From: a virus
Lineage: Duplodnaviria > Caudoviricetes
Reading direction: 5' to 3' (one strand)
IMG/VR virus record: IMGVR_UViG_3300030376_004181
Coordinates: 1-40,660 of that record
DNA: 40,660 nt
This document shows positions 1 to 39,111 of the stretch, piece after piece. Below the pieces are notes generated by a model. It had not been told where the DNA came from and ran no database searches. It worked only from the letters and a program-made list of their open reading frames with translations. How positions within the stretch are numbered: the first letter of the stretch is position 1; each line of letters starts with the position of its first letter. The position numbers and the translations under genes were made by a program.

Positions 1-820
1 CCCGCCGTGGGAACCCCCCACAGTACAGCCATCGCCACCCCCAGTGCTAATTCTTCCATCACCAATTGGAGAAAACCTACAGATACCAGTGACAACAGAC
101 ATAGAGGGATTAGAAGAAGAGCCATTTGAAGATGATATCATGTGGGACTTCGACGATGTAGAATGGGAAGAGTTCGAGTTAGATGAGTTGCCAGAAATTG
201 AATTTATTGCAGAAGAATTTGAGGAAGAAGAGGAAGAAGAAACAACTTTCTTTGATGATGGAGAACAAGAACAGCCAGATGAAGTACAATCAGATGTGGA
301 ACTAGAGGAAGAGTTTGTTCTTGAAGAGTTTGAGGACATTGAAGAAGTAGACTTTGAGGAGTTAGACGCTGATGAGCTTGACGACGAAATTATTGCTGAG
401 ATACTACAGGATGAAGAGGCTGTTGAGATCTTTTTGGAAGAGGTCTTAGAAGATAATCCAGATTTTTTTGAAGAAGCTACCGGAGATCAAGTATCTGTAA
501 TCTTTGAGTCAGCACCAGAGATATTTAACGAAGCATCTGACGAAGTTAAAGAAGAACTCGAAGAAGAAATAAACGTGTTTGCTGGTGGCTTTGAAGAGTA
601 TGTGCCAGAGGATTCAAACATCAGCGTCGATGACAGACGTTCTATCATTGCTGTCACATCTGCGACTACAATAGTTGCTGGAGCTGCAATTGCAAGACCA
701 ACACCTCCACCAACACCAAGACCTACAACTCCAACCCCTCCAAGACCTAGCAGTCCACAATCTGCTTCTCCCAGTGGTCCCGAAACCCCAAGGAGAAAAA
801 CTAGAGATGATAAAGCGTAA
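1..820 (+). CDS. 5'-truncated acidic, Pro-rich membrane-anchored surface protein (allele of 37234..38760)
   Basis: Long runs nearly identical to the C-terminal half of the 508-aa protein ([33 protein letters not shown]); hydrophobic segment IIAVTSATTIVAGAAIA followed by a Pro/basic tail; runs off the window start. Confidence 0.85.
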   Translation, partial: PPWEPPTVQPSPPPVLILPSPIGENLQIPVTTDIEGLEEEPFEDDIMWDFDDVEWEEFELDELPEIEFIAEEFEEEEEEETTFFDDGEQEQPDEVQSDVELEEEFVLEEFEDIEEVDFEELDADELDDEIIAEILQDEEAVEIFLEEVLEDNPDFFEEATGDQVSVIFESAPEIFNEASDEVKEELEEEINVFAGGFEEYVPEDSNISVDDRRSIIAVTSATTIVAGAAIARPTPPPTPRPTTPTPPRPSSPQSASPSGPETPRRKTRDDKA

Positions 821-989
821 AGTTAAACGACTAACTCACGAAGTGTTTATCCTTAGCCTTACTGCTGGGTCAACCGGAATCGTGCTTATCACTTTATCGG
901 GTGAGACAAGAGAGTATGGTATTTGGATTACCGCAGCTAGCTTTGTGTGCCACATGGTAGGTGTATGGATAGATTGGAAAGAAGAGTGA
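807..989 (+). CDS. small two-TM membrane protein (holin-like or partner of the surface protein)
   Basis: ATG at 807 after AGGAG; basic N-terminus plus two hydrophobic helices; conserved in the copy at 38747..38929. Confidence 0.75.
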   Translation: MIKRKVKRLTHEVFILSLTAGSTGIVLITLSGETREYGIWITAASFVCHMVGVWIDWKEE

Positions 990-1171
990 CTCTCGAAGCA
1001 TTGTTCTTAGTTATTCTTACAGCTTGCCTTGTCCCTTGGATGGCTTGGATTTCTACCGTGTTAATTAAGATTGAGATACGTTTAGCTAAGGGTGATGAAG
1101 CGTTAGAAACTGCTGAGGAGCGTTTAGCAGACCATGAGCAAAGATTACGAGCGTTAGAACAACGCTGTTAG
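986..1171 (+). CDS. small protein with one TM helix and a coiled coil
   Basis: GTGA overlap with the upstream stop; hydrophobic N-terminus, then ERLADHEQRLRALE coiled coil; conserved at 38926..39111. Confidence 0.75.
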   Translation: MTLEALFLVILTACLVPWMAWISTVLIKIEIRLAKGDEALETAEERLADHEQRLRALEQRC

Positions 1172-1764
1172 CTACACACCCAGTGTTGCCAACCTCCGCC
1201 TGTAGCCCTGTAAATTAGCCAAGCGCTAACCCTGATATTAGCCTCACCTGAAAAAACGTCTGCTACATAACCTAAAGCAGTACGACTTCTAGCATCCCAA
1301 TACGTTGTCAAGTGTTGCATCAAGCCACTAGCTGTACTAACACTAGACCTCGCTGTAGGATCGCCACCAGATTCACAATCTATAATTTTCAAAAACCTAG
1401 CGGTATCGCTAGCAGGCCCACCGTTCGCTAGTATTGCGTCTTGCACAATTGGCCTCCACCGTTCGACCTCCGGCTTAAAGGTAGCGTTAGGAGAAACAGT
1501 TGAGTACAAACGCACCGAAATGTTCCGTTCCATAGCCCACTGACGATGATGCTTATGCGTATTTGTACCATAAATCCCATCCGTGTTCACGTTCATCCAG
1601 TACTGCAACAACCACACTCTCTCGCTGTCCTCTAACCAGTCATACTCAATAGATATAATGTGATTCTCTATTTTGTCCCAAGGTATGTAAGCTAGAGCTG
1701 TAGCTGACAGTGCGTTGATAGCGAACGTAAATAAAATCGTGCTATAAATAAAGGTCTTTTTCAT
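1168..1764 (-). CDS. exported lytic transglycosylase (SLT/lysozyme-like fold) with signal peptide
   Basis: Signal peptide MKKTFIYSTILFTFAINALSATALA; catalytic CESGG followed by ASGLMQ; DGIYG peptidoglycan-binding-like motif. Confidence 0.8.
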   Translation of the reverse strand: MKKTFIYSTILFTFAINALSATALAYIPWDKIENHIISIEYDWLEDSERVWLLQYWMNVNTDGIYGTNTHKHHRQWAMERNISVRLYSTVSPNATFKPEVERWRPIVQDAILANGGPASDTARFLKIIDCESGGDPTARSSVSTASGLMQHLTTYWDARSRTALGYVADVFSGEANIRVSAWLIYRATGGGWQHWVCS

Positions 1765-2107
1765 TATGGTGTCTCCAAATTGTTAACAGTTCCGCCGTAA
1801 ATTCCGCATCTAAAACAGCTACTTTACCAACTGTCTTTCCTATTTGCGACCTTCTGTCCCCGTGGATAGCAAAGATTACCCACTGATTATTGTGAGCAAC
1901 TTTCCGTATCCTGCTAATCCACGGGAACAGTGTCCAACGCTTGCGATATTTCACTTCAATAGGAATATCTAAGTCCCCCAACCAGATATCGTGAGACTCG
2001 CTACTAGCGCTGGTTCTGTGAGCATCGTTATGCCCCCATTCCATAAGTAAAGCCACTATTTCATTTTCACCCGCAGTTCCTTTTTGTTTTGCTTTAGACA
2101 AAATCAA
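1742..2107 (-). CDS. Holliday junction resolvase, Hjc-like PD-(D/E)xK
   Basis: SKAKQKGTAGENE...HDI...IEVK motif pattern. Confidence 0.75.
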   Translation of the reverse strand: MILSKAKQKGTAGENEIVALLMEWGHNDAHRTSASSESHDIWLGDLDIPIEVKYRKRWTLFPWISRIRKVAHNNQWVIFAIHGDRRSQIGKTVGKVAVLDAEFTAELLTIWRHHNEKDLYL

Positions 2108-2642
2108 ACACTCCTTGTATTTCTGCCCGTTTTTTTTCGACGGTTACGATTGTATCGTTCCTAACTCCTCCATGGGGTACTAAAAGAATTTCTAACATAT
2201 CAAAACCTAAAGTCTTGCCTATGCCCATGGAGTTCCAACCACAACGCACTACGATGGCGTTAGGTTTGCATATCCTTGCGATTTGTTTTTTGATCTCTGA
2301 CCACGGGTTTTGTGTGTCTTCTTGAGTGACTACACGCCCTATCCCGTCGTAGCATTCTTTGATCTGTCTAGAGCTGTACGGTGGGTCAAATAGAACTCCG
2401 TCAACTGACTCATCTTCAAGCAATGAAAGAAAATGCTTAGAGTCGTGATGAAAGTCTGCTTCAAACTCTGGGTTGATGTCGTTTGTGAACTTCATTAAAT
2501 GCTTAAAACAACTGTTACGGACATAAGGATCAACCCAAACTCCCTTGGTCATCACCCTGCGAAGGAGGGAGTTAATGGGTTGAATCCTAAATGTTTCAGA
2601 GTTAGGCATAGCCCATTCTCTATGAAACTGTATTTCTGTCAC
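2094..2642 (-). CDS. putative adenine-specific DNA methyltransferase
   Basis: Catalytic DPPY motif (VLFDPPYS); degenerate SAM-binding VDPY; phage-type AMPNSETF start. Confidence 0.75.
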   Translation of the reverse strand: MTEIQFHREWAMPNSETFRIQPINSLLRRVMTKGVWVDPYVRNSCFKHLMKFTNDINPEFEADFHHDSKHFLSLLEDESVDGVLFDPPYSSRQIKECYDGIGRVVTQEDTQNPWSEIKKQIARICKPNAIVVRCGWNSMGIGKTLGFDMLEILLVPHGGVRNDTIVTVEKKRAEIQGVFDFV

Positions 2643-2830
2643 AAAAGTTCTTTAATGTCTTCTGCAATCGGCCCGTAATGCTGTTCTGCGTAAGCGTCTA
2701 AAGCATCCCGTATCATACCTGATCTAGTTTGACCGTTATGTATCGCTAACTGGTCTACCTTAACTAACAAAGAGTGAGGTATCCGCATAGCAATTAACTG
2801 GTCGTTTTTGTCTTTAAGTGGTGTTTCCAT
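2639..2830 (-). CDS. ribbon-helix-helix (CopG/Arc-like) DNA-binding protein
   Basis: LIAMRIPHSLLVKVDQLA...TRSGMIRDAL pattern; ATG at 2830 has an AGGAG RBS. Confidence 0.75.
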   Translation of the reverse strand: METPLKDKNDQLIAMRIPHSLLVKVDQLAIHNGQTRSGMIRDALDAYAEQHYGPIAEDIKELL

Positions 2831-2832
2831 CG

Positions 2833-2985
2833 TTATTTCTCCTGATGTTTTTGCCCGCATGTAGGGCATTTGTTATTATTATTTTCTATTACTTTTGAGC
2901 CTATGACCCAACCGCAACTACAGCTTATGTAGTACGGTGATTTGGTTCTGAGTTTAGATTTCTTCTGACCGAAATCATCCCACAC
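2833..2985 (-). CDS. 50-aa zinc-ribbon protein (not in the ORF track)
   Basis: Hand translation MWDDFGQKKSKLRTKSPYYISCSCGWVIGSKVIENNNNKCPTCGQKHQEK; TAGTG coupling to ssb; fills the intergenic gap exactly. Confidence 0.7.
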   Translation of the reverse strand: MWDDFGQKKSKLRTKSPYYISCSCGWVIGSKVIENNNNKCPTCGQKHQEK

Positions 2986-3389
2986 TAAAACCAGTCCTCA
3001 TCTTTATCTATTGGCTTACCATCAACTATTGCAGTTTTGCCTTGCCAATCATCTTGCTTAGGCGCTCTAACAATCTGAAATAAATCCCAAACGTTACAGT
3101 CCCAACCAGTTACAGTTTGTCCGTCTTTGTTTTTGTATTGACGGCTGGTAAATTTGCCTCTAACAGCTATCCTGCTACCTTTATCTGTGGCTTTAGCTAT
3201 AGCTTCTGCTAGCGCTGTTGACTCATCTCTGGAGTCTTCCCAAACGCTTAACGTTACCCATGTAGTTTCTTCTGGGCCTGTCTTTACGGCTAACGCATTC
3301 TCATAAACTGCTTTGCCTGTGCCAGTGACCTTGGGTAGCCACTCTCTGCCTAGGTTTCCCATTTGGAAACCGATTCCCTCATTCAACAT
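2985..3389 (-). CDS. ssb: single-stranded DNA-binding protein
   Basis: GNLG, TTWV..SVW, KGSRIAVRGKFTSRQYKNKDGQ motifs; acidic-aromatic C-terminal tail DEDWF. Confidence 0.85.
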   Translation of the reverse strand: MLNEGIGFQMGNLGREWLPKVTGTGKAVYENALAVKTGPEETTWVTLSVWEDSRDESTALAEAIAKATDKGSRIAVRGKFTSRQYKNKDGQTVTGWDCNVWDLFQIVRAPKQDDWQGKTAIVDGKPIDKDEDWF

Positions 3390-3795
3390 TATTGTTCTCC
3401 TTTTTAATTAATTGTTGATGTAATACATAATACTCATCTGATGTCCAAAGTGACAACCCAAGACTTAAGCGCATCCCAATCCGTTTTATACCATCGCTGA
3501 CACTGGCTTTACTGTTCTGACCTGAGTGCTTACTAGGTCTTTCCACCTCGCCAATCTCTTGAATGGTGACTTGTTTGCCATCTATGGTAAAAGTGCATTC
3601 AAGAATGCAACCCTCAACAATGCCCTCTGGACTTCTGATAAGTTCTACTATTCGCATGTCAAACGGACCTAAATGTAACAACAAAAATTGCGTTATATCT
3701 CCGTGGCTGACATACCTGTCACCCCTACCTGTCGGCTTTACTTTAACGAAAGTTTCCGGTATTGGTTTTGATAATTTGATTAATTGTTCAGGCAT
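3379..3795 (-). CDS. Rad52/Sak-like single-strand annealing protein
   Basis: YVSHGDIT...KASVSDGIKR..MRLSLGLSLW matches the Rad52/22 family pattern; adjacent to ssb and an exonuclease. Confidence 0.7.
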   Translation of the reverse strand: MPEQLIKLSKPIPETFVKVKPTGRGDRYVSHGDITQFLLLHLGPFDMRIVELIRSPEGIVEGCILECTFTIDGKQVTIQEIGEVERPSKHSGQNSKASVSDGIKRIGMRLSLGLSLWTSDEYYVLHQQLIKKENNNVE

Positions 3796-4048
3796 CTATT
3801 TTCTCCCAATTCGGATATTTTTCTTCTAACTCTTTCATACGTCTCTGTGAAGAGACCCAACTTTCCCAACAATACATTGTCCAATCTTCTAAATCATTTA
3901 ACAATTTTTTATTAGGTTCTGTTTCTTCTTCTTCTAATCTCTCCGCTAGAGATAAAAAGTTTTCCATGCCTTGCATCATTTTGACATCGTGTGCAAGCCA
4001 CTTGTATGTTTGCCTATCAAGTGTTTCTTGATCAGGTTCTTTCATCAT
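3788..4048 (-). CDS. hypothetical protein
   Basis: Overlapping coupling with both neighbours; near-identical partial copy at 40410..40660. Confidence 0.75.
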   Translation of the reverse strand: MMKEPDQETLDRQTYKWLAHDVKMMQGMENFLSLAERLEEEETEPNKKLLNDLEDWTMYCWESWVSSQRRMKELEEKYPNWEKIDA

Positions 4049-4901
4049 TATCTCCTTTCAGTAATGATTCATGGTAACGAGCTGTCGTCAAGGTGACCTC
4101 TGTTGGTCCCACCATCTGACAAAGTTCGTTGTGTCTACAGTATCTACATTGCCAGTGTCCGCCTTTGTGAGGCACACCATACGGGCTAGGGCTTTCAACT
4201 AACTTGTCTACCCCGTTGTCGTCAAACAGTACGGCATCTGGGAGCATGTCGTTACTGAGGTCTTGTTGCACTGAGCGGAACAGTTCTAGTTCAGCGTCAG
4301 CTAACTGCATAGGTGACATTCCGTACTCGTAGATGACTTCATCTAAAGGTATGACCCATTCAATGATGTCTCCTGCTTTTGTTTTGCTACGGAAGTCGTC
4401 GCCTTTAGCCATGTACACAAGGTACACAGCGTCTACTTGCCCACCTGCTTCAATTATACCTTTGGCATACAGGCTAGCTTGTGACAAATGTTCTCGTTTA
4501 GGCACACCTGATTCTCTACTGAGCTTAAACCCGAATGGCGACATGGTTTTTATTTCTAACAACCTGTATTCGCCATTGACTTTTATTAATCCGTCACAGC
4601 TACCACTAAGGCTAACACCTGTGTACGACAAATCTATCGGTGTCTCATACTCTCCTAGAAATTGATCAGCGCACGCTTCTTGAATTACGTTGTGCATGTG
4701 TGTACCTAACTCAAATGCAAGCAGGGTTGATGTGTCTATTTCGTGACACTCATGTGTCTGTAAGGCGTTGAATCCTCGCTGACGTAAACACGCACCACTG
4801 TCACTCACACGGCTCTGCGTACCGCAAGCTGTTGGCTTAACGGAACGATTGCCCTGTAAGAACTGTTCGTATGCTGTGGTGATATCAGTTGTTTGTTTCA
4901 T
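4032..4901 (-). CDS. Cas4-like PD-(D/E)xK exonuclease
   Basis: N-terminal C (GACLRQ), GTHMH, SGSCDG..LLEIKT, Q...Y and C-terminal CRYC..C Fe-S cluster pattern. Confidence 0.8.
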   Translation of the reverse strand: MKQTTDITTAYEQFLQGNRSVKPTACGTQSRVSDSGACLRQRGFNALQTHECHEIDTSTLLAFELGTHMHNVIQEACADQFLGEYETPIDLSYTGVSLSGSCDGLIKVNGEYRLLEIKTMSPFGFKLSRESGVPKREHLSQASLYAKGIIEAGGQVDAVYLVYMAKGDDFRSKTKAGDIIEWVIPLDEVIYEYGMSPMQLADAELELFRSVQQDLSNDMLPDAVLFDDNGVDKLVESPSPYGVPHKGGHWQCRYCRHNELCQMVGPTEVTLTTARYHESLLKGDNDERT

Positions 4902-5277
4902 AATCTTCTCCTAGTCTGTAATACGCTACCTTTGCTCCACCGTTTAGGTTATCCATTTTGCGTTCAATAGGTACACCAAACTCTTCAGAGAGCTGACGTA
5001 TCCTACGTTGCCAATCACCTTTACCCAGTGTATAGCGCAAGTCTTCTCCACAAACCCAAGAGTTTGTGTCAGAAACACGATGGCTTCTTCCATCAGCTAT
5101 TTTCTTAATGTATAGCAGATAGTCGTAGACTTCTTTGCATTTCTTTCCTGCGTCTTTGAGGGACTTGGCTGATTGATGCTCAAGTCCCTCCCGATGACCT
5201 GCTCTGGCTCGTTCTGCCTTTAGTAACTGCCTGAACGGTCTTCGGCATGTTGGGCATGACTTGATATCATTCATCAT
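4885..5277 (-). CDS. hypothetical protein, possible winged-HTH with N-terminal CxxC
   Basis: CPTC; WQRRIRQLSEEFGVPIER...AYYRL resembles a winged helix. Confidence 0.55.
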   Translation of the reverse strand: MMNDIKSCPTCRRPFRQLLKAERARAGHREGLEHQSAKSLKDAGKKCKEVYDYLLYIKKIADGRSHRVSDTNSWVCGEDLRYTLGKGDWQRRIRQLSEEFGVPIERKMDNLNGGAKVAYYRLGEDYETNN

Positions 5278-5413
5278 CGTCTGCCCTAACTTTTGTCTCT
5301 GCCTCTATAAGTTCTACAAGTATTTGTTGCGATGCAATGATCGCATTAGCAACGTTGTAGATTCCTTTGAGGTGAGGTTCGTCTGTTTCAAATGGTTTTA
5401 TTTCATCTGGCAT
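5267..5413 (-). CDS. 48-aa hypothetical protein
   Basis: Hand translation MPDEIKPFETDEPHLKGIYNVANAIIASQQILVELIEAETKVRADDDE; GAGGAGG RBS. Confidence 0.6.
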   Translation of the reverse strand: MPDEIKPFETDEPHLKGIYNVANAIIASQQILVELIEAETKVRADDDE

Positions 5414-5414
5414 A

Positions 5415-5558
5415 TTATTCCTCCTCTAATGGTTCAGCGTCTATTGCTTCCGCTAAACCTTCTCTGTGTTGTAACAAATAACCTTGTTCATCTATGCGCT
5501 GAATTAAACTACTGATCTCGTTGCCGAGTCGGTCATCATGTATAGATTCTTCGGTCAT
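5415..5558 (-). CDS. 47-aa acidic hypothetical protein
   Basis: Hand translation MTEESIHDDRLGNEISSLIQRIDEQGYLLQHREGLAEAIDAEPLEEE; abuts the next gene. Confidence 0.55.
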   Translation of the reverse strand: MTEESIHDDRLGNEISSLIQRIDEQGYLLQHREGLAEAIDAEPLEEE

Positions 5559-5590
5559 TATTATTTCTAGTACATTAACCTTCTTGCTCA

Positions 5591-5794
5591 TTAGTGTAAC
5601 TCCATGGTGTCATGTGTGACACTGTAGTTACGCACATATCTAGCAATACCAAACCTGTGCGAGCCATCAATATCATCGAGAACGCTACGCACAACCTCTC
5701 TCGCTGATGGTGCATACCCATCCTCGTAGTGCATGTACTGATGGTCAATGAACTCTTGAGTTACATGGATAGTAACATCAAATTGTATTTCCAT
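5591..5794 (-). CDS. hypothetical protein
   Basis: ORF with GAAGGA RBS and TAATG coupling. Confidence 0.65.
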   Translation of the reverse strand: MEIQFDVTIHVTQEFIDHQYMHYEDGYAPSAREVVRSVLDDIDGSHRFGIARYVRNYSVTHDTMELH

Positions 5795-5922
5795 TACTCT
5801 AATCCTTCCTTATAGTAAAGCTCTTCCTCACGTTGAGCGTGAAGAGCATTTGTTTCTCTTTCTAAAGCCTCATCAAAGGCTTCTTCTTGTTCGGGTGTAA
5901 ACCCCAACAGTTTTATTTTCAT
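5794..5922 (-). CDS. 42-aa acidic hypothetical protein
   Basis: Hand translation MKIKLLGFTPEQEEAFDEALERETNALHAQREEELYYKEGLE; strong AGAAAGGAAAG RBS. Confidence 0.65.
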   Translation of the reverse strand: MKIKLLGFTPEQEEAFDEALERETNALHAQREEELYYKEGLE

Positions 5923-5948
5923 AGCTTTCCTTTCTTTTGTTATATTCA

Positions 5949-5976
5949 ATTATACACGACCTGCAACAGATCTCAA
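5949..5976 (-). promoter_or_regulatory. sigma70/SigA-type promoter for the recombination operon
   Basis: Minus strand TTGAGA-N16-TATAAT upstream of the RBS of 5794..5922. Confidence 0.6.
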
Positions 5977-5982
5977 ATCATG

Positions 5983-6150
5983 TTACACATCGTTTGACCA
6001 GTTCGCTCCATTACAGAACGGACAAGTCGGATACCTGTCAGAGATTGCATCACCAATAAAAGCTCTGCAATCAAGACACTTCACGAAGAACTTGCTTAAG
6101 CCTTTAGACTTACGCTTCTTCGTTTTCTCTTGTGAGAAATCAAAGTCCAT
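5983..6150 (-). CDS. small zinc-ribbon protein
   Basis: Start MDFDF at 6150 after AGAAAGAAGGAAAC; CLDC...CPFC. Confidence 0.7.
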   Translation of the reverse strand: MDFDFSQEKTKKRKSKGLSKFFVKCLDCRAFIGDAISDRYPTCPFCNGANWSNDV

Positions 6151-6202
6151 GTTTCCTTCTTTCTTTATTACCTTCTTGGTGTATAACCTTGTGTACAGGG
6201 TA

Positions 6203-6436
6203 TCACACGCTGTCAAGTCGGGTCTTCATCATCCTCCATCTGTAACGCTCAGATGCAGTCATTCCATGTCTGAAACCCCAGAGTTGGAAAGGGTCTGGCT
6301 CATCTTCAGCAGACGTAGCAATACACTGTTCAATAACAGGGCATCCATCACAAACAGACCTGCACTTACGATGCTGGTCCGAATAGAATACCGTAGTCAT
6401 GCCACGACAGCCAGCTCTCTCTCTCCAATTATCCAT
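6203..6436 (-). CDS. whiB: WhiB-family Fe-S transcription factor
   Basis: WRERAGC...VF...VCDGCPVIEQC...LWGFRHGMTASER: four-Cys WhiB spacing with a variant G(V/I)WGG turn. Confidence 0.8.
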   Translation of the reverse strand: MDNWRERAGCRGMTTVFYSDQHRKCRSVCDGCPVIEQCIATSAEDEPDPFQLWGFRHGMTASERYRWRMMKTRLDSV

Positions 6437-6451
6437 TCTTTTACTATACAC

Positions 6452-6501
6452 CAAAGAACCCCCTGCGTAGGAAAAGAAGGAAGGAAACCTACGCAAGGGG
6501 T
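6452..6501 (-). terminator. intrinsic-terminator-like hairpin ending the early operon
   Basis: 14-bp stem ACCCCUUGCGUAGG/CCUACGCAGGGGGU (G-U pair works only on the minus strand), followed by UCUUU. Confidence 0.6.
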
Positions 6502-6510
6502 CTAATGATT

Positions 6511-6597
6511 CTAGCCGTAAACTAGCTCACCAAACAACCCGTACTGAACAATAATGTTAGCCCAGTCTGCACCTTGTTCTTGTATTTCTTCTTTCAT
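6511..6597 (-). CDS. 28-aa peptide
   Basis: MKEEIQEQGADWANIIVQYGLFGELVYG with a strong AGAAAGGAAAG RBS. Confidence 0.55.
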   Translation of the reverse strand: MKEEIQEQGADWANIIVQYGLFGELVYG

Positions 6598-6619
6598 ATT
6601 CTTTCCTTTCTTTGTTAAT

Positions 6620-6808
6620 CTAAGCGATTAAATTATCAGGGTCAAAGGCTAGGTCATACACAAAGGTTTGTGCTTGTGACCATGCCGACTCACCATTAAA
6701 ACGTTTGACGACCTTGTTAGTAGAGATTTTGCGAACAACTGCTACGAGGTTCACATCATCTACTTCTGAAACATAATCGCCTTCTTGATAATCAATTACT
6801 AAACTCAT
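6620..6808 (-). CDS. hypothetical early protein
   Basis: Strong AGAAAGGAAAG RBS; tandem array. Confidence 0.75.
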   Translation of the reverse strand: MSLVIDYQEGDYVSEVDDVNLVAVVRKISTNKVVKRFNGESAWSQAQTFVYDLAFDPDNLIA

Positions 6809-6839
6809 ATTTCTTTCCTTTCTTTATTGTTATTAATTA

Positions 6840-7103
6840 TTAAAATGGTTCAGCATCAAACTCATGGAGCACATCTTCGTAAGCTTGAATAACAAGAGTG
6901 TCATTATCTACGACAGTTGTGCGAACCTTAAGACCACGTGCTTTTCCAGCTTGCTTCGCACCATTACGCATGGTGTTTACATTGCTTTGGAAATCATCAG
7001 GTCGTGTAAGTTTCCAGATGTTACCATCTAGCCACAAATTCCATTCATACTTTCCCTTGCGACCAGCGCTAGCGAAAGCAAATCTTTCTAATTGTGTTGC
7101 CAT
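6840..7103 (-). CDS. hypothetical early protein
   Basis: RBS AGAAAGGAAAG; GRKGKYEWNLWLDGNIWKL motif. Confidence 0.8.
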   Translation of the reverse strand: MATQLERFAFASAGRKGKYEWNLWLDGNIWKLTRPDDFQSNVNTMRNGAKQAGKARGLKVRTTVVDNDTLVIQAYEDVLHEFDAEPF

Positions 7104-7241
7104 AATTTATCTTTCCTTTCTGAAACAAACACTTGGAGTGTTTCCCACTGTCCACCATCTAAGGGAGGTAAGTATGGTGGACAGGGAGCTACACTCTTCA
7201 GCTCTGGGAGATTCCCTGAATCGTCAGAGGTTGCTAGTTCT

Positions 7242-7418
7242 TTAGCATTCTTGTACGTCAAGAACCATAGTTGATGTGTGCATAGCATGATCGTAAGCAT
7301 CATTAATAGTTGCTTCGCTCTCAGCCATGTCACGTGCATCGTAATCATTATTTGCCTCAACTTCTACCCACTCGTCATCCTCGTAGATGTGGTTGAGATG
7401 TACTTTGTACGTTGCCAT
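7242..7418 (-). CDS. 58-aa acidic early protein (not in the ORF track)
   Basis: Hand translation MATYKVHLNHIYEDDEWVEVEANNDYDARDMAESEATINDAYDHAMHTSTMVLDVQEC; AAAGAAGGAAAAG RBS. Confidence 0.75.
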   Translation of the reverse strand: MATYKVHLNHIYEDDEWVEVEANNDYDARDMAESEATINDAYDHAMHTSTMVLDVQEC

Positions 7419-7436
7419 TATCTTTTCCTTCTTTCC

Positions 7437-7487
7437 GTGCCTTATCTAAGCACTGAGAAAGACACCTTACGATGTCCAACCCACAAC
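7437..7487 (-). ncRNA. intergenic structured motif, family B copy 1
   Basis: GUUG UGGG UU GGACAUC GUAA GGUGUCU UU CUCA GUGC..GCAC, then SD; covaries with 9618..9669. Confidence 0.7.
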
Positions 7488-7766
7488 TTAGAACGATGAG
7501 TTATCAAATAAGTATTCTTCAGTTTGAAAACCATTCGCCATGACAAATTCTTTTATCTCTGACTTCAAATAAATGTTGCTTTTATTTTTTTCAATTACCG
7601 GAGTAGGAAATCCACGACCATCATATCGTCGCCTCCAATTATTAACTCTTTGGTCAGTAGTTGTATAATAATCAGCGACATCACGCAAATTCCATAACTC
7701 ATCCTTACATTGTTCTAAGAATCTGCGTATGTCGTTGTCATCGCTTGGTGTGTAGTATTTAACCAT
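7488..7766 (-). CDS. AlpA/Xis/MerR-like helix-turn-helix protein
   Basis: LWNLRDVADYY...VNNWRRR..GFPTPV...IYLKSEIKEF pattern. Confidence 0.65.
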   Translation of the reverse strand: MVKYYTPSDDNDIRRFLEQCKDELWNLRDVADYYTTTDQRVNNWRRRYDGRGFPTPVIEKNKSNIYLKSEIKEFVMANGFQTEEYLFDNSSF

Positions 7767-7782
7767 ATCTTCCTTCTTTCTT

Positions 7783-7830
7783 TCTGATGCTTACTTAACA
7801 TCCTAGAGCACACCCTGCGATGTGCTCCGA
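7783..7830 (-). ncRNA. intergenic structured motif, family A copy 1
   Basis: UCGGAGCACA-loop-UGUGCUCU AG GAUG..CAUC AGA immediately before the SD. Confidence 0.75.
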
Positions 7831-7834
7831 GTTA

Positions 7835-8374
7835 TTAACTAGCTAACTCTGCTCTTTTCTTTTCCATCAAAGCATTAAACTCACGCTTATTATACGAAGT
7901 TGCATTAGTTGATAGACCAATACGACGCTCCAAATCTTCACGGGTAACTTCCCGATGAATTTGTTTTTCAAACTTGAGTTCATCCTCATTGAATTGCAAG
8001 TAATAGAACTTAACATACCCGCCATACCCAGAATCTATAAACATTTCAATTCTGCGCATCCATTCGTTAATGTTGCTCTCTTTGATAACGTTAAGCCCGA
8101 CTGTCATCGTCATCCATACAATACTTTGAGTGACGTTGTGCTCTATCCACGTATTAATACGGGACAGGAACAGCCCTAGCTCTTGCTCGTTGTCTTTGTC
8201 TGGAAGTGGACCCCATTGTGCATCACCTAGTGATGACAGTTGGACCTCTTCAATAACAAAGCCAGACGAATCTTTAACTTTGAATACCGGATATTCTGTG
8301 TCGCCTATGTAGGCTGTTGCACAGGATATTTCCGAGTAGTCAGAGACATTCGCTACTGACCAATTAAATGGCAT
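7835..8374 (-). CDS. hypothetical early protein
   Basis: 179-aa ORF with AGAAAGAAGGAAAAG RBS, bounded by family A motifs. Confidence 0.85.
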   Translation of the reverse strand: MPFNWSVANVSDYSEISCATAYIGDTEYPVFKVKDSSGFVIEEVQLSSLGDAQWGPLPDKDNEQELGLFLSRINTWIEHNVTQSIVWMTMTVGLNVIKESNINEWMRRIEMFIDSGYGGYVKFYYLQFNEDELKFEKQIHREVTREDLERRIGLSTNATSYNKREFNALMEKKRAELAS

Positions 8375-8388
8375 ATCTTTTCCTTCTT

Positions 8389-8439
8389 TCTGATGTTCCT
8401 AGCGAACATCCTAGAACGCACCCTTACGATGCGCTCCGA
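8389..8439 (-). ncRNA. intergenic structured motif, family A copy 2
   Basis: Compensatory change GCGCA/UGCGU in stem 1; stem 2 GAUGUUC/GAACAUC. Confidence 0.75.
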
Positions 8440-8447
8440 GCTATTAG

Positions 8448-8744
8448 CTAGTCCCATAACGTTGCTCCGCACGCTTCGCATGCGTAGTCATCGTCATCGT
8501 ATGGAGGATGGTCACAATCCGTATCAAAATCAGTGGAATAGCATAGAAATTTATTGTTATCTTTAGGGTTAGGATGCAACCATCCGTTACCGTTATTGAT
8601 AGTTAAATATTTTTCAATAGTTTTTATGCTATGACTTCTACAGACATCAATAGTTTGTGACCCCACATGTGCGACTTCTTCATCACAAGTCCATAGGGAA
8701 CCCATCAACGTTGTATACGTTTCTATTCGTCTACCTTTAGCCAT
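8448..8744 (-). CDS. hypothetical Cys-containing early protein
   Basis: Start MAKGRR at 8744 after SD; CDHPPYDDDDYACEACGATL C-terminus. Confidence 0.8.
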   Translation of the reverse strand: MAKGRRIETYTTLMGSLWTCDEEVAHVGSQTIDVCRSHSIKTIEKYLTINNGNGWLHPNPKDNNKFLCYSTDFDTDCDHPPYDDDDYACEACGATLWD

Positions 8745-8757
8745 TATCTTCCTTCTT

Positions 8758-8812
8758 TCTGACACCACCTAGTTAGTTGGCATCCTAGAACACACCCTGC
8801 GATGTGCTCCGA
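8758..8812 (-). ncRNA. intergenic structured motif, family A copy 3
   Basis: Stem 2 GAUGCCA/UGGUGUC is maintained by G-U pairs on the minus strand. Confidence 0.75.
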
Positions 8813-8820
8813 CATAACAA

Positions 8821-9138
8821 CTAAACGTTATATATTTCTTCTATGAAATCTTTGAAATTATTAGTCACATTCTTATTGACTTCAATAGTTTCCTTACGAT
8901 TACCGCTATGATCTACGCCCCAACTATGGAACAATTCTGCCATAGGATACCGGCTATCTACAGTAAATCTAACTGTAGGTCCACCATACGTAATAAGAAA
9001 CTCACAAATATAATCTTGATTACATGCCTCATTCGTTATGCTCCGCTCGGTAAATAGCCGAACTTCTAAGCAATCAAATTCGCTTAAATCTTGGTGTTCA
9101 CTTTCAAAGTGATCCCGATATTCAAATATGTTTTCCAT
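8821..9138 (-). CDS. hypothetical early protein
   Basis: Start MENIF at 9138 after SD; LITYGGPTVRF...SWG motif. Confidence 0.8.
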   Translation of the reverse strand: MENIFEYRDHFESEHQDLSEFDCLEVRLFTERSITNEACNQDYICEFLITYGGPTVRFTVDSRYPMAELFHSWGVDHSGNRKETIEVNKNVTNNFKDFIEEIYNV

Positions 9139-9153
9139 TATCTTTCCCTTCTT

Positions 9154-9199
9154 TCTGATGCTTAGCATCCTAGAACACACACTGTCGCATGTGCTCCGA
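9154..9199 (-). ncRNA. intergenic structured motif, family A copy 4
   Basis: UCGGAGCACAUGC GACA GUGUGUGUUCU AG GAUGC UAA GCAUC AGA. Confidence 0.75.
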
Positions 9200-9208
9200 G
9201 CTGTTAAG

Positions 9209-9364
9209 CTACTTAACTTTCTTAAGTATCTCCGCTAACTTGTCTAATGTTTCTTTGTCCATATTATTAACGGCATCAAGGTTAATCGTCTGGTTCCATT
9301 GTTTACGGAACTCATCACCTGATTCATCGGGATTACTAATTCCCATAATTTCTATACTTGGCAT
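9209..9364 (-). CDS. 51-aa early protein
   Basis: Start MPSIE at 9364 after SD. Confidence 0.7.
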   Translation of the reverse strand: MPSIEIMGISNPDESGDEFRKQWNQTINLDAVNNMDKETLDKLAEILKKVK

Positions 9365-9381
9365 TATCTTCCTTCTTTCTT

Positions 9382-9431
9382 TTTGATGTTTACTTAACAT
9401 CCTAGAACACATGCTTGCACATGTGCTCCGA
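9382..9431 (-). ncRNA. intergenic structured motif, family A copy 5
   Basis: GGAGCACAUG..GCAA..CAUGUGUUCU AG GAUGUU..AACAUC. Confidence 0.75.
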
Positions 9432-9435
9432 GATA

Positions 9436-9603
9436 TCAACTATCTACAGTTACCCGAATAGTTTTATTGAAGGGAATCCAACCTTCACGCCTAGCCTTAT
9501 TCATATAGTAAATTTCAGTAAGCATAAACAATCCGTAGCCTTTTGTTTTCTCTTCAAGTTGTTCCCACCATTCAATAGTTTTACCTTCAAACATAGGTCC
9601 CAT
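9436..9603 (-). CDS. small early protein
   Basis: Start MGPMF after SD AGAAAGAAGGAAG. Confidence 0.7.
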   Translation of the reverse strand: MGPMFEGKTIEWWEQLEEKTKGYGLFMLTEIYYMNKARREGWIPFNKTIRVTVDS

Positions 9604-9617
9604 CATCTTCCTTCTTT

Positions 9618-9669
9618 CTAGTGCACTAGGCACTAGGAAAGGCACTATTTCTAATGCCCAACCTACAAC
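9618..9669 (-). ncRNA. intergenic structured motif, family B copy 2
   Basis: GUUG UAGG UU GGGCAUUA GAAA UAGUGCCU UU CCUA GUGC..GCAC; GNRA loop. Confidence 0.7.
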
Positions 9670-9882
9670 CTAGACAATTATGCAACCCGTCTGTCCGCAT
9701 CCTAGTTGCTCAAATGTTTCCGATTGGAAATATTCAACAACATCTTTACGCACAAGTTGGTATAGCGGTAAATCAATTGGCGCTTCTATGTCATAATTAT
9801 CTGCCCATTCTTTAACCTTTACGGTTACCGTGATGGGAATAAGGATTGTCATAGTGCCATCCTTAATGTTTAAATCGCTCAT
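9670..9882 (-). CDS. hypothetical early protein
   Basis: SD AGAAAGAAGGAAG; cassette arrangement. Confidence 0.75.
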   Translation of the reverse strand: MSDLNIKDGTMTILIPITVTVKVKEWADNYDIEAPIDLPLYQLVRKDVVEYFQSETFEQLGCGQTGCIIV

Positions 9883-9896
9883 TATTCTTCCTTCTT

Positions 9897-9942
9897 TCTG
9901 ATGCAGTTAGCATCTTAGAGCACACCTCACGATGTGCTCCGA
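9897..9942 (-). ncRNA. intergenic structured motif, family A copy 6
   Basis: UCGGAGCACAUC GUGA GGUGUGCUCU AA GAUGC..GCAUC AGA. Confidence 0.75.
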
Positions 9943-9954
9943 GATAATAACTAT

Positions 9955-10158
9955 CTATCCCCCGTATGGTCCTGCCCAATTTGGACCAGTCATATTTTTA
10001 AATTCGCCGGTGCCTAATTGGGTTACACCGTTAAACCTTCGGTCACGCTCCCACCGTAGCGCTTTATGCGCTTGACGATTACGGAGACGCTCTAATCGTA
10101 ACTGATTAAGTTCACGGTCACGGCGTGCTTTACGTAACTTACGTTTGTACTCTTCCAT
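9955..10158 (-). CDS. Arg-rich first early protein
   Basis: Start MEEYKRK at 10158; its SD lies inside hammerhead stem III. Confidence 0.7.
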   Translation of the reverse strand: MEEYKRKLRKARRDRELNQLRLERLRNRQAHKALRWERDRRFNGVTQLGTGEFKNMTGPNWAGPYGG

Positions 10159-10162
10159 GTTG

Positions 10163-10219
10163 CCTTCTTTCTGCATCCCTTACGGGTGCTCATCAGTGTG
10201 GTCAATTCCACAGAGAAGG
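10163..10219 (-). ncRNA. type III hammerhead-like ribozyme (variant core)
   Basis: CCUUC-UC/UGUGG-AAUUGA-CCACA-CUGAUGA-GCACCC-GUAA-GGGAUGC-A-GAAA-GAAGG: stems I-III and core present; one extra A before GAAA. Confidence 0.7.
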
Positions 10220-10229
10220 AAAGAAAGAT

Positions 10230-27581: not shown

Positions 27582-28523
27582 ATGGCAACAACACAAATGA
27601 GTTCGCTAGCAAGTGCTGGTACAGCCGCTTTTGAGCAGCTTGCCTACTTTGCTTTGCGATCACAACCTATGTTTGAGATGGTGTGTGACGTTAAGTCAAC
27701 TAACCAATCTCATGCTGGCGCTACTATTTTGTTCACAAAATATAGTGACCTTGCACAAGCTACAACAGCATTACACGAAATCAACGACGTTACCCCTGCA
27801 ACAATGGGTGATGCACAGATTACGGTAACACTTGCTGAGTATGGTAATTCAGTACAGACAACCGCTAAAGCCCGTGGAACACATTTTTTGAATATAGATT
27901 CTGACGCTGCGAACATTATCGGTTACAACATGGCTGATAGCCTTGATAACATTGTTCACGATGAACTTACTGAAGGAACTAACGTTCTATATGGTGGCGA
28001 TGCAACAAACACTGGAGAATTAGCAGCAACCGATATTATGACTGCAGCTCTTATCCGTAAAGCTGTTGCTAACCTTAGAACTGATTCTGCACCTACGTTC
28101 AATGGTGGCGTTTATGTTGGATTTATCCATCCTGACGTTTCCTACGATTTACGAAATGCTACTACGGTAACTGACGTAATCGCACACCAAAACCAGCAAA
28201 ATGCTGGCGCTATCCGAAATGGTAGCATTGGTGTTTACGGTGGGGTTGATTTTATTGAAACCCCTCGTGTAGAACTCACAGCAGATGCTGGTGCTTCTAA
28301 CGTTGATGAATACAAAACAATTATCTGCGGTAAGCAGGCTCTAGCTAAAGGCTTTAGCCGAGGAGCCGGATTTGGTGAAAACCCAAGCGTAGTATTTGGT
28401 CCTGTGACCGACAGCCTACGCCGACTCAACACAGTTGGTTGGTATCATCTAGTTGGGTACAAGCGATTCCGTGAGGAATCCATCAGAAGGATTGAAACAT
28501 CATCCTCAATAGGAACTAACTAA
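27582..28523 (+). CDS. major capsid protein (N4-gp56-like, HK97 fold)
   Basis: TVTLAEYGN, IIGYNMADSLD, YVGFIHPDVSYDL, GSIGVYGGVDFIETPR, VGWY motifs. Confidence 0.88.
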   Translation: MATTQMSSLASAGTAAFEQLAYFALRSQPMFEMVCDVKSTNQSHAGATILFTKYSDLAQATTALHEINDVTPATMGDAQITVTLAEYGNSVQTTAKARGTHFLNIDSDAANIIGYNMADSLDNIVHDELTEGTNVLYGGDATNTGELAATDIMTAALIRKAVANLRTDSAPTFNGGVYVGFIHPDVSYDLRNATTVTDVIAHQNQQNAGAIRNGSIGVYGGVDFIETPRVELTADAGASNVDEYKTIICGKQALAKGFSRGAGFGENPSVVFGPVTDSLRRLNTVGWYHLVGYKRFREESIRRIETSSSIGTN

Positions 28524-37233: not shown

Positions 37234-38760
37234 ATGGCTCGTTTTTTCTTTGCCCTGTCACGCATATTGTTAGCTTCCATGTTTGTTATGGCGATAATTA
37301 GTCCTGTGTCAGCACAAGAGAGCGAGCCTGAGACAACGTGTGCAGATCAAGAAGATGTTACTTCGTGTACTGTGCATGTGGATGATTATGATGCTCCGCC
37401 TGTGGTGTATATGACAGTCGCTGAAGATCAGACTGCTGTTGAAATCATTACCTATACGTCATTGACATGCGATAATCATGGCTTAGAAAGCATTTATGCT
37501 GACCCTTACCTTATATTATATGACAGTGGTGGGACAATTATTGGTGAAGATGATGATTCAGCGAGCCACAATGACGGTTCTAACATGTGTTGGGACAGTT
37601 ATTTGAACCTTACGTTGGATGCAGGGGACTATGAATTGTCAGCTACTGCATACGATGGGGAAACTATAGGAACGTATACGTTAGAGTTTTCTGGTGTGAG
37701 CTGGTCGTTGTCTAATGACTCTGAGCCTGCGCCTGATCCTGAACCTACTCCAGAACCAGAACCTACGCCCGAACCAACTCCTGAGCCTACGCCTGAACCT
37801 GTAGAGCCTACGCCTGAGCCAGACCCTGAACCGGAACCAACGCCTACGCCTGAAGAGGAAGTTGAACCTCCCGTAGATGAGCCTATTCAAAGTCCCACTC
37901 CTCTCCCAGAAGAACCAGAAGAAGAGCCAGAACCAGACCCAGTGTGGGAACCCCCCATAGAAGATACATTGCCAGACCCAGAGCCAATTCTTCCATCACC
38001 ATTTGAAGAAAATCCGTTGCCACCAGTGACAATAGACATAGAGGAATTAGAAGATGATTCATTTAATGATGATATCATTTGGGACTTAGAAGATGTAGAA
38101 TGGGATGACTTTGAGTGGGATGAGTTACCTGAGATAGAGGAATTAGATGAACTATTACCAGAAGAAGATGAGGCAGAGGCGGAAGAAGAGGCAACTTTTG
38201 TTGATGAAGCAGAACAAGAACAGCCAGATCAAGTACAATCAGATGTGGAACTAGAGGAAGAATTTGTTCTTGAAGAGTACGAAGACATTGAAGAGATAGA
38301 CTTTGAGGAGTTAGACGTTGATGAGCTTGACGACGAAATTATTGCTGAGATATTACAAGATGAAGAGGCTGTTGAGGTCTTTCTTGAAGAGGTCTTAGAA
38401 GACAACCCTGATTTCTTTGAGGAAGCTACCGAAGATCAAGTGTCTGTAATTTTTGAGTCAGCACCGGAGCTGTTTAATGAGGCTTCTGATGAGGTTAAGG
38501 ATGAACTTGAGGCTGAGATTAATGTGTATGCTGGTGGTTTTGGTGAGTATGTGCCAGAGGATTCAACAATATCTGTTGATGAAAGGCGGAGTATTATTGC
38601 GGTGGCTACAGCGACTGCTACAATAGCTACAGTAGCGGTTGCTAGACCTACACCGCCACCTACACCAAGACCTACAACTCCAACCCCTCCAAGACCTAGC
38701 AGTCCATCGGCTGTTTCTCCCAGTGGTCCAACGATCAGGAGAAACAATGATAAAACGTAA
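37234..38760 (+). CDS. secreted, membrane-anchored acidic surface protein with PPC-like domain and (PE/PT)n stalk
   Basis: Signal peptide ending VSA-Q; DPYLILYD...IGEDDDS...[11 protein letters not shown]-like motif; Pro-Glu-Thr repeats; Asp/Glu-rich domain; C-terminal hydrophobic segment. Confidence 0.75.
37723..37853 (+). repeat. coding tandem repeats encoding PEPTPE
   Basis: Degenerate CCTGAACCTACT/GAGCCTACGCCT units. Confidence 0.8.
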
Positions 38761-38929
38761 ACTTAAACGGTTAACACGTGAAGTATTTATTCTTAGTTTA
38801 ACTGCTGGCTCTACGGGTATTGTGCTGATTACGTTGTCAGGGGAGACAAGAGAGTACGGTATTTGGATTACCGTAGCTAGCTTTGTGTGTCACATGGTAG
38901 GTGTATGGATTGATTGGAAAGAAGAGTGA
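38747..38929 (+). CDS. small two-TM membrane protein (allele of 807..989)
   Basis: Near-identical protein with many synonymous changes. Confidence 0.8.
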
Positions 38930-39111
38930 CTCTTGAAGCACTGTTCTTAGTTATTCTTACAGCTTGTCTTGTGCCTTGGATGGCTTGGATTTCTACCGTG
39001 TTAATTAAGATTGAGATACGTTTAGCTAAGGGTGACGAAGCTTTAGAGACTGCTGAAGAACGGTTAGCTGACCATGAGCAACGCATCAGGGCGTTAGAGT
39101 CTGTCCGTTAG
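38926..39111 (+). CDS. TM plus coiled-coil protein (allele of 986..1171)
   Basis: Near-identical protein. Confidence 0.8.
   Translation: MTLEALFLVILTACLVPWMAWISTVLIKIEIRLAKGDEALETAEERLADHEQRIRALESVR

What the first reader, a model, noticed from the sequence alone, without database searches (positions are those of the whole stretch)
7437..9669. Family B intergenic RNA motif (2 copies) with compensatory changes and GNRA loops
Seen at 7437-7487 and 9618-9669: invariant GUUG, an outer stem UGGG/CUCA versus UAGG/CCUA, a symmetric UU/UU internal loop, an inner stem GGACAUC/GGUGUCU versus GGGCAUUA/UAGUGCCU capped by GUAA or GAAA, then a GUGC/GCAC hairpin and the SD. It starts right after the upstream stop codon. 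G-U pairs and GNRA loops support a minus-strand RNA structure. It is distinct from family A but sits in the same slot.
Basis: partly seen in the sequence, partly recalled or inferred. Interest (0 to 1): 0.7.

Follow-up and report, generated by a model that had tools for sequence, protein, structure and literature searches.

The report
T7-like RNase III hairpins in actinophage
A phage that likely infects actinobacteria repeats a conserved RNA hairpin between its small, likely early genes; the hairpin is built like the RNase III cutting sites of phage T7 and is predicted to refold after the cut into a protective hairpin at the front of each message, and cultured Streptomyces phages carry a similar layout in which this can be tested.

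Summary
The motif is real: two copies here, 48 distinct variants in close kin, 99% of cells paired with compensatory changes at 10 of 18 pairs, and no Rfam match. Family B is not separate from family A: both fit the T7 R1.1 RNase III register, and seven gene families sit behind A in some genomes and B in others. A model built from B alone ranks the T7 R1.1 stem first in 7 kb of T7 DNA (E about 0.01). The predicted cut leaves a 5' hairpin starting at base 1 or 2 (47 of 48) and a free ribosome site (45 of 48). Against: two proximal-box pairs are U·U and one is often G-C, unlike the E. coli consensus; no cut was observed. The operon opens with a hammerhead-like RNA, genes between elements are shuffled, and cultured Streptomyces phages show a similar layout. 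Verdict: likely host RNase III processing sites, a new variant of a known device. The scan reported this kind before on other DNA.

The parts
7437..7491 (-). Family B copy 1: long hairpin (lower stem with upstream TAA, G·G/U·U mismatches, 4-bp stem, UU/UU, 7-bp upper stem, GUAA loop) overlapping an alternative 3' hairpin; predicted RNase III cut on the 3' strand between 7455 and 7454 (5'-strand site 7481/7480)
   Evidence: the cut position is inferred from the register in PMC1540722
9618..9673 (-). Family B copy 2: same build, 8-bp upper stem, GAAA loop, upstream TAG in the lower stem; predicted 3'-strand cut between 9635 and 9634 (5'-strand site 9663/9662)
   Evidence: the 3' cut was read from alignment A1 column 43/44, because the script mis-anchored this copy
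7419..7436 (-). Purine-rich Shine-Dalgarno tract ahead of the ATG at 7418
9607..9619 (-). Purine-rich Shine-Dalgarno tract ahead of the ATG at 9606
9899..9953 (-). Family A copy; predicted first base after the cut 9914
9385..9441 (-). Family A copy; predicted first base after the cut 9401
9157..9210 (-). Family A copy; predicted first base after the cut 9169
8761..8823 (-). Family A copy (variant; not in the 21-member A set); predicted first base after the cut 8784
8392..8449 (-). Family A copy; predicted first base after the cut 8410
7786..7841 (-). Family A copy; predicted first base after the cut 7802
10163..10228 (-). Type III hammerhead-like element heading the array; extra A (10172) between stem II and GAAA; stem III pairs the SD of the first gene; predicted self-cleavage after 10213
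7242..10158 (-). Nine small genes (51-179 aa), each behind one element (order H, A, B, A, A, A, A, A, B); no PHROGs hit at E<=0.001 except a DNA-binding-protein family for 7488-7766
6455..6503 (-). Strong hairpin (z -5.6) after the small-gene run; likely end of the operon
   Evidence: function inferred
6203..6436 (-). WhiB gene, pointing to an actinobacterial host
   Evidence: PF02467, E 2e-8
3379..4901 (-). Single-strand annealing protein (3379-3795) and Cas4-like exonuclease (4032-4901); candidate machinery for recombination between the repeats
   Evidence: role inferred

Best explanation
Family B is a repeated, covarying RNA hairpin between the small, likely early genes of a likely actinobacterial phage, and it is likely a cutting site for host RNase III that is predicted to refold after the cut into a short 5'-terminal hairpin that would protect the next gene's message while leaving its ribosome site open. 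Shown: the sequence, its covariation, two mutually exclusive folds, the match to the T7 R1.1 register, exchange with family A, and shuffled gene order. Inferred: one long transcript from about 10.5 kb to 6.45 kb; RNase III binds through the distal and middle boxes and cuts the 3' strand 13 nt below the loop (12 in copy 1). The G-C at proximal-box position 4 (27 of 48) may damp the 5'-strand cut, so the upstream message would keep a 3' hairpin as in T7. The weak lower stem (G·G, U·U) then opens and the downstream piece folds a 5-7-bp hairpin that blocks 5'-end decay (RNase J, RNase E). As a by-product, the repeats serve as crossover points for gene cassettes.
For: Long hairpin: 99.1% of 858 cells paired, 10 of 18 pairs with changes on both sides, 0 of 500 shuffles as high, slid controls 31-53%; compensatory states at different pairs fall on different splits. 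On the minimal R1.1 register (PMC1540722): distal box U-A 43 of 48 and U·G 46 of 48; A14:U25 and C13:G26 48 of 48 in B and 21 of 21 in A; position 12:27 G-C in 39 of 48 (an enhancing change in that paper); no G-C or C-G at proximal position 2 in any of 69; the pair next to the predicted 3' cut is U-A in 48 of 48. A model from B alone, run on T7 700-7700 without filters, ranks the R1.1 stem first (16.4 bits, E 0.011; next 7.9 bits) and the R0.3 stem eighth of 15 (E 4.9). B variants match 12-19 of 22 bases of the R1.1 stem (window copy 2: 16); copy 1 matches R0.3 at 15 of 20. The register occurs in 1 of 2044 background hairpins. Folded from the predicted cut, the product pairs its first base in 39 and its second in 8 of 48 B, and its first in 21 of 21 A; the SD is free in 45 of 48 B and 20 of 21 A. 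Seven gene families occur behind A in some of 17 contigs and behind B in others. A U·G preference at the distal box is also reported for B. subtilis RNase III (bioRxiv 10.1101/2023.03.12.532304, section read). Streptomyces has RNase III and a monophosphate-preferring RNase J (PMC10126417).
Against: No cleavage was observed: the only RNA run found holds contigs only, at share 0.05, and cannot show ends. Proximal positions 2 and 3 are U·U in B, where the E. coli consensus has A-U, and position 4 is G-C in 27 of 48, a catalytic antideterminant. In family A the pair below the predicted cut is C-G in 21 of 21. The B 3' hairpin has a blurred outer edge: it can extend 1-2 bases upstream of the predicted cut in 33 of 48, while A is sharp in 21 of 21. 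S. coelicolor RNase III cuts at sites that differ from those of the E. coli enzyme, so E. coli rules may not transfer. In nine hand-picked Streptomyces-phage hairpins the distal box is never U·G and proximal position 2 is G-C in five. The register test was loosened after I had seen the data, I chose the T7 region because I already suspected the match, and the copies are not independent. In the uncut RNA the 3' hairpin is already favoured in 15 of 48. The host is not identified.
Confidence: 0.63

Rival explanations
1. RNase III, or another double-strand RNA-binding protein, binds the hairpin without cutting it and shifts the balance between the long form and the two-hairpin form, tuning translation or stability of the intact operon message.
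For: G-C at proximal position 4 in 27 of 48 and U·U at positions 2-3; PMC1540722 describes such pairs as uncoupling binding from cleavage; the two folds are close in energy (long form favoured in 32, alternative in 15 of 48).
Against: The SD is open in both folds, so there is little to switch. The 3' hairpin begins at or within 2 nt of the predicted cut in both families, which only matters if a cut is made. A hammerhead-like cleaving motif fills the same slot at the head of the array.
Confidence: 0.12
2. A different nuclease or a phage-encoded protein recognises the mismatched hairpin, and the likeness to T7 sites is a coincidence or an ancestral relic.
For: Invariant non-canonical pairs (G·G 48 of 48, U·U) are not part of the E. 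coli RNase III consensus; most early proteins have no known family.
Against: The invariant Watson-Crick and wobble pairs fall on the RNase III boxes in two otherwise different sequence families; the phage encodes no RNase III of its own; the downstream genes vary between genomes while the element stays.
Confidence: 0.09
3. The repeats are kept mainly as DNA crossover points for shuffling gene cassettes (like T4 PeSL elements); the RNA fold is secondary.
For: Gene order between elements is strongly shuffled: one gene family is followed by 7 different families and another by 4, across 17 contigs; the phage has an annealing protein and a Cas4-like exonuclease; PeSL precedent (PMC2839356, abstract only).
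Against: Strand-specific G·U pairs, GNRA loops in 48 of 48 and compensatory changes lower sequence identity while keeping the RNA fold; two different sequence families serve the same slot, which hinders crossover between them.
Confidence: 0.07
4. Family B is a new class of small self-cleaving ribozyme.
For: It occupies the same slot as a hammerhead-like motif; clustered ribozymes flank single phage genes (PMC3088659, passages); it has invariant G·G, U·U and UU/UU mismatches.
Against: It is a single unbranched hairpin with no conserved loop, junction or pseudoknot; no Rfam ribozyme match; its conserved pairs are explained by RNase III boxes and shared with family A, which lacks the UU/UU loop.
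Confidence: 0.04
5. The elements are terminators or attenuators paired with internal promoters.
For: Strong hairpins directly after stop codons.
Against: The hairpins are followed by an A/G-rich SD, not a U run; the scan called no terminator at any element and fewer promoter-like sites than in shuffles (9 against a mean of 12.7). That scan does not cover all actinobacterial promoter or terminator types.
Confidence: 0.05

Closest known systems
Phage T7 early RNase III processing sites (R0.3, R1.1; names and positions recalled, sequence from NC_001604; R1.1 stem identified by the pair identities in PMC1540722)
   Same: Intercistronic hairpins in a phage operon; GNRA-capped upper stem with a U-A/U·G distal box, A-U, C-G and G at proximal position 1; up to 19 of 22 bases identical to the R1.1 stem.
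   Different: Tandem U·U in the proximal box; a paired 4-bp stem across the cut site with G·G/U·U below it instead of a large asymmetric loop; a built-in alternative 5' hairpin for the product; lower stem anchored on the upstream stop codon; 8 repeated copies of two sequence families; likely actinobacterial host; cleavage untested.
T4-type PeSL cassettes (Arbiol et al. 2010, PMC2839356; abstract seen)
   Same: Repeated intergenic elements among small non-essential genes that coincide with modular gene shuffling.
   Different: PeSLs are promoter plus terminator; here no promoter or terminator signature was found, and conservation follows RNase III boxes.
Clustered phage hammerhead ribozymes (Perreault et al. 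2011, PMC3088659; passages and one section seen)
   Same: Proposed purpose of cutting long phage transcripts into single-gene messages; a hammerhead-like motif heads this very array.
   Different: Family B has no ribozyme core. The lead hammerhead carries an extra A between stem II and GAAA in 12 of 12 variants, an insertion not among those named in the section read (A6a, U13a).
Intergenic hairpins of cultured Beephvirinae Streptomyces phages FlowerPower, Manuel and Kumquat (not annotated in their records)
   Same: Same genomic slot next to Cas4/WhiB genes; a long hairpin overlapping a second hairpin before a purine-rich SD; that hairpin starts within 2 nt of the CA/UG+10 position in 9 of 9 picked cases, out of 18 gaps examined.
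   Different: No sequence-level match to the B model (best E about 1); no U·G distal pair; GC-rich.

Membership tests
T7-type RNase III processing signal (E. coli consensus, PMC1540722) | Lies between co-directional genes of a phage early operon | tested here: met
   Between tightly packed minus-strand genes; stop codon directly adjacent in 28 of 42 B junctions. 'Early' and 'one transcript' are inferred.
T7-type RNase III processing signal (E. coli consensus, PMC1540722) | About 11-bp helix between cut and loop | tested here: inconclusive
   11 stacked positions of which 2 are U·U-type mismatches; window copy 1 has 10 positions.
T7-type RNase III processing signal (E. coli consensus, PMC1540722) | Distal box U-A then U·G | tested here: met
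   43 of 48 and 46 of 48.
T7-type RNase III processing signal (E. coli consensus, PMC1540722) | Middle box C13:G26; proximal position 1 G-C | tested here: met
   C-G 48 of 48; position 1 has G on the 5' strand in 46 of 48 (G-C 18, G·U 28).
T7-type RNase III processing signal (E. coli consensus, PMC1540722) | Proximal positions 2 and 3 are A-U/U-A | tested here: not met
   U·U in 43 and 47 of 48; never the inhibitory G-C/C-G at position 2. B is therefore filed as working like these sites, not as a member of the E. coli consensus class.
T7-type RNase III processing signal (E. coli consensus, PMC1540722) | Proximal position 4 is A-U/U-A | tested here: inconclusive
   U-A 20, G-C 27, U·U 1 of 48 on the upper side; U-A 48 of 48 at the mirror position beside the predicted 3' cut.
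T7-type RNase III processing signal (E. coli consensus, PMC1540722) | Cleaved by RNase III, giving 5'-phosphate and 3'-OH ends | not testable with these tools
   The only RNA run was contigs; host unknown.
Any Rfam family | Match at gathering score | tested here: not met
   3 matches at E<=5 in the window, none on family B and none at gathering score.
PeSL cassettes | Strong sigma70-like promoter plus terminating stem-loop | tested here: not met
   No promoter excess and no terminator call at the elements.
PeSL cassettes | Gene cassettes exchanged at the repeats | tested here: met
   Shuffled order and A/B exchange across 17 contigs; mini-circles not tested.
Known self-cleaving ribozymes (for family B) | Conserved catalytic junction or pseudoknot | tested here: not met
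   Unbranched hairpin; no Rfam ribozyme hit on B.
Type III hammerhead (lead element 10163-10228) | Three stems around CUGANGA and GAAA with a UH cleavage site | tested here: met
   12 of 12 variants, selected by a pattern that required the core; stem I 4-5 bp with compensatory variants, stem III 4-5 further pairs.
Type III hammerhead (lead element 10163-10228) | Stem II closes directly onto G12; Rfam gathering score | tested here: not met
   Extra A in 12 of 12; RF00008 14 bits against a gathering score of 48.5.
Type III hammerhead (lead element 10163-10228) | Self-cleavage in Mg2+ | not testable with these tools
   Needs an in vitro assay.

The most novel reading that the evidence does not exclude
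The element is a mobile, ribosome-gated 'cut-and-cap' switch. The upstream stop codon is built into the lower stem (UAA/UAG in 43 of 48 variants), so a terminating ribosome would melt the RNase III substrate and flip it to the two-hairpin form, tying cleavage of each junction to translation of the gene before it. Hammerhead, family A and family B modules would be interchangeable ways to give every shuffled gene cassette its own protected 5' end, in a design shared with cultured Streptomyces phages.
Probability: 0.15. Interest if true: 0.72.

Novelty: new variant of a known kind. Interest (0 to 1): 0.5.

Why it matters
T7's RNase III sites are a textbook device known mainly from enterobacterial phages. 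This shows the same recognition boxes, nearly letter for letter, in an unrelated and likely actinobacterial phage, with an added feature: the cut is predicted to create a 5' protective hairpin suited to hosts with 5'-to-3' decay. Two sequence families and a hammerhead-like RNA fill the same slot, which suggests a job for phage hammerheads. The 69 natural variants are a ready substrate series for actinobacterial RNase III specificity. The similar layout in phages Manuel and Kumquat, which grow on S. lividans, makes the idea testable with rnc mutants. It is an extension of a known mechanism, not a new kind of system.

Tried and rejected
Rfam: no relevant match. blastn of the array against annotated phages: no match. 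tRNA scan: none. Two first patterns were mis-written and found nothing. Integron attC reading rejected by eye: the end motifs run in the wrong order. Terminator/promoter reading: no support. Host search in GTDB genomes gave 4 contigs in bins of four unrelated phyla, probably mis-binned, so it was not used. RNA evidence: one run, share 0.05, contigs only; uninformative on ends. The metagenome pattern scan gave 36 stretches; matches in 19 loci lacked an SD and hairpin and were dropped as chance. The hammerhead pattern gave 16 distinct strings; 4 lacked the stems or context and were dropped. The B model found 0 hits in 80 further loci. That is weak evidence: most of those loci do not reach the early region, and a known A copy in L087 was missed. 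No B or A arrays were seen in kin with 69-89% terminase identity whose early region was held (SD contexts read; repeats in 8 loci; L013, L020 and L026). The B model on FlowerPower gave no significant hit. The pair count for the 3' hairpin on alignment A1 (90.5% paired) is lowered by 5 mis-aligned rows, so per-sequence counts were used. Literature: nine searches listed no paper describing this element. No paper giving the T7 cut positions was found, so those are recalled. The supplement of the 224-motif paper (PMC5737381) could not be read; its motifs are covered here only as far as Rfam holds them. The Minerva preprint has no mention of RNase III or hammerhead (term search).
Full report
Setting. 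The window is a virus record of 40,660 bases with terminase, capsid, SSB, an annealing protein, a Cas4-like exonuclease and WhiB. Its closest annotated capsids are those of Streptomyces phages at about 36% identity, and its WhiB hits are Microbacterium and Rhodococcus phages. An actinobacterial host is therefore likely but not identified. On the minus strand, nine small genes between 10158 and 7242 are each preceded by a structured element, in the order hammerhead-like, A, B, A, A, A, A, A, B.

Observation. Both B copies are as described. Pattern scans of viral and metagenome contigs and the loci of relatives gave 48 distinct B variants and 21 A variants. At least one more B variant and several divergent elements were missed by my expressions. 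All lie in close kin (terminase about 90-99% identical where measured). On alignment A1 this long form has 99.1% of 858 cells paired and 10 of 18 pairs with changes on both sides; slid controls give 31-53%. Relatedness inflates such counts, but the compensatory states at different pairs fall on different splits, so they reflect several independent events. The loop is GNRA in 48 of 48. The alternative 3' hairpin also shows compensatory change in the five variants of the first-position type. In the uncut RNA the long form is favoured in 32 and the alternative in 15 of 48. Rfam has no match.

What it resembles. The upper stem recalled T7's RNase III sites, so I fetched T7 700-7700 (the record does not annotate the sites, whose names and positions are recalled). 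I read the abstract, introduction, results and discussion of Pertzev and Nicholson 2006 (PMC1540722). On that paper's register, B has the distal box U-A (43 of 48) and U·G (46 of 48), invariant A14:U25 and C13:G26, G-C at 12:27 in 39 of 48, and G at proximal position 1 in 46 of 48. Family A, though different in sequence, has the same invariant pairs (21 of 21), U·G in 15 of 21 and A-U at proximal position 2 in 21 of 21. A covariance model built from B alone ranks the R1.1 stem first in the T7 stretch at 16.4 bits, E 0.011 (rough), against 7.9 bits for the next hit, and it recovers all six A copies in the window, partly through the shared SD. The register occurs in 1 of 2044 background hairpins, in 6 of 26 on the array's coding strand and in 2 of 18 in T7; this test was loosened after seeing the data, and the copies are not independent. 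Applied to T7, the register places the first base after the cut at 5888, which agrees with the position I recall.

Departures. In B, proximal positions 2 and 3 are U·U rather than A-U, and position 4 is G-C in 27 of 48, which suppresses cleavage by the E. coli enzyme. B therefore fails the E. coli consensus at a defining feature. I file it as working like T7 sites, not as a member. The mirror position next to the predicted 3' cut is U-A in 48 of 48, which would fit a preferred single cut on that strand; this is inference. B. subtilis RNase III shares the distal U·G preference (bioRxiv 10.1101/2023.03.12.532304, one section and passages), but S. coelicolor RNase III cuts its model hairpin at different sites from E. 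coli (PMC10126417, passages and part 1 of 2 of the RNase III section).

After the cut. Folded from the predicted 3' cut, the downstream RNA forms a 5-7-bp hairpin that pairs its first base in 39 and its second in 8 of 48 B variants, and its first base in 21 of 21 A variants; the SD stays unpaired in 45 of 48 and 20 of 21. The hairpin's outer edge coincides exactly with the predicted cut in all A variants. In B it lies between 2 bases upstream and 1 downstream, so the coincidence is sharp for A and approximate for B. That 5'-terminal pairing slows RNase E and RNase J attack is established knowledge (recalled; primary papers seen only as reference titles in PMC3997798). Streptomyces RNase J prefers monophosphate ends.

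Context. Across 17 contigs, seven gene families sit behind A in some genomes and behind B in others, and gene order between elements is heavily shuffled. A and B are thus functionally exchangeable and likely act as crossover points, as PeSLs do in T4-type phages (PMC2839356, abstract). The upstream stop abuts the element in 28 of 42 B junctions, and UAA or UAG stands in the lower stem in 43 of 48 variants, including cases where the real stop lies earlier. The array is headed by a type III hammerhead-like RNA with an extra A in 12 of 12 variants and the SD in stem III. Perreault et al. proposed that clustered phage hammerheads cut transcripts into single-gene messages (PMC3088659, passages and one section). 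A cleaving motif in the same slot supports processing as the purpose.

A testable relative. Cultured Beephvirinae phages have a similar genome layout. Of 18 intergenic gaps of 55-130 nt in their small-gene run, I picked the 9 whose main hairpin holds a CA/UG pair in a usable position. In these, a second hairpin starts within 2 nt of the same +10 position in 9 of 9, and the product pairs its first base in 8 of 9. The other 9 gaps lack the anchor or have it at the loop. These hairpins do not match the B model and lack the distal U·G, so homology is not shown and the E. coli rules fit them less well.

No direct evidence of cutting was obtained: the single RNA run was contigs at low share. Nine literature searches listed no description of this element; one relevant supplement could not be read. 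Earlier scan notes show nothing for relatives of this place but many similar T7-like hairpins and SD-masking hammerheads on other DNA. I reached the reading before consulting them and did not test their claims.

Verdict. A real, well-supported RNA element. It is most likely a host RNase III processing site with a built-in 5' protective hairpin (0.63). Rivals: binding without cutting (0.12), another protein (0.09), crossover site only (0.07), terminator (0.05), new ribozyme (0.04). New variant of a known kind; interest 0.5.

Noticed in passing
window 10163-10228 (-), and 11 variants in kin (L001, L002, L003, L007, L022, L094, L101, L110, L117, L118, L124): A type III hammerhead-like RNA heads every array whose start was seen. 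It has a conserved extra A before GAAA, and its stem III plus a long pyrimidine tract pair the first gene's SD, so self-cleavage could release the ribosome site. The scan has noted SD-masking hammerheads on other DNA.
   Followed up: partly
L155 39609-44268, L156 2753-6877, L157 2766-6456 (Streptomyces phages FlowerPower, Manuel, Kumquat): Unannotated intergenic hairpins with the same long-hairpin plus overlapping second-hairpin layout before a purine-rich SD; two have tandem U·U loops as in family B. Kumquat has an ArdA-like gene in this run.
   Followed up: partly
window 1-1106 against 37944-39046, and 3514-4005 against 40157-40660: The two ends of the record repeat at only 76-94% identity with about 1.3 kb difference in spacing; the contig probably runs past one genome length and joins two strains.
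   Followed up: no
window 6455-6503 (-): The strong hairpin after the small-gene run has a loop that is a near-perfect complement of the array's SD tract; it may be an inverted SD relic or an SD trap. The WhiB ATG follows a TATAGT box by a few bases, which suggests a leaderless message.
   Followed up: no
all array SDs, e.g. window 9607-9619 (-): The SD is unusually long and fixed (AGAAAGAAGGAAGAU type) and departs from the usual GGAGG core; it may point to a host with an atypical 16S tail.
   Followed up: no
run X1 on window 8410-8449: An RNA-library contig carries a family-A-like core in unrelated flanks with a different SD (bin depth 64.8), hinting at more distant phages with the element. 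Contig evidence only.
   Followed up: no
L032 about 6530-7480: Long low-complexity GAG/GAC repeat tract in the early region of a 76%-terminase relative, in place of an element array.
   Followed up: no
window 28465-28498 (+): Weak CRISPR-DR7-like match (26 bits, below gathering) just before the end of the capsid gene; single copy, probably chance.
   Followed up: no
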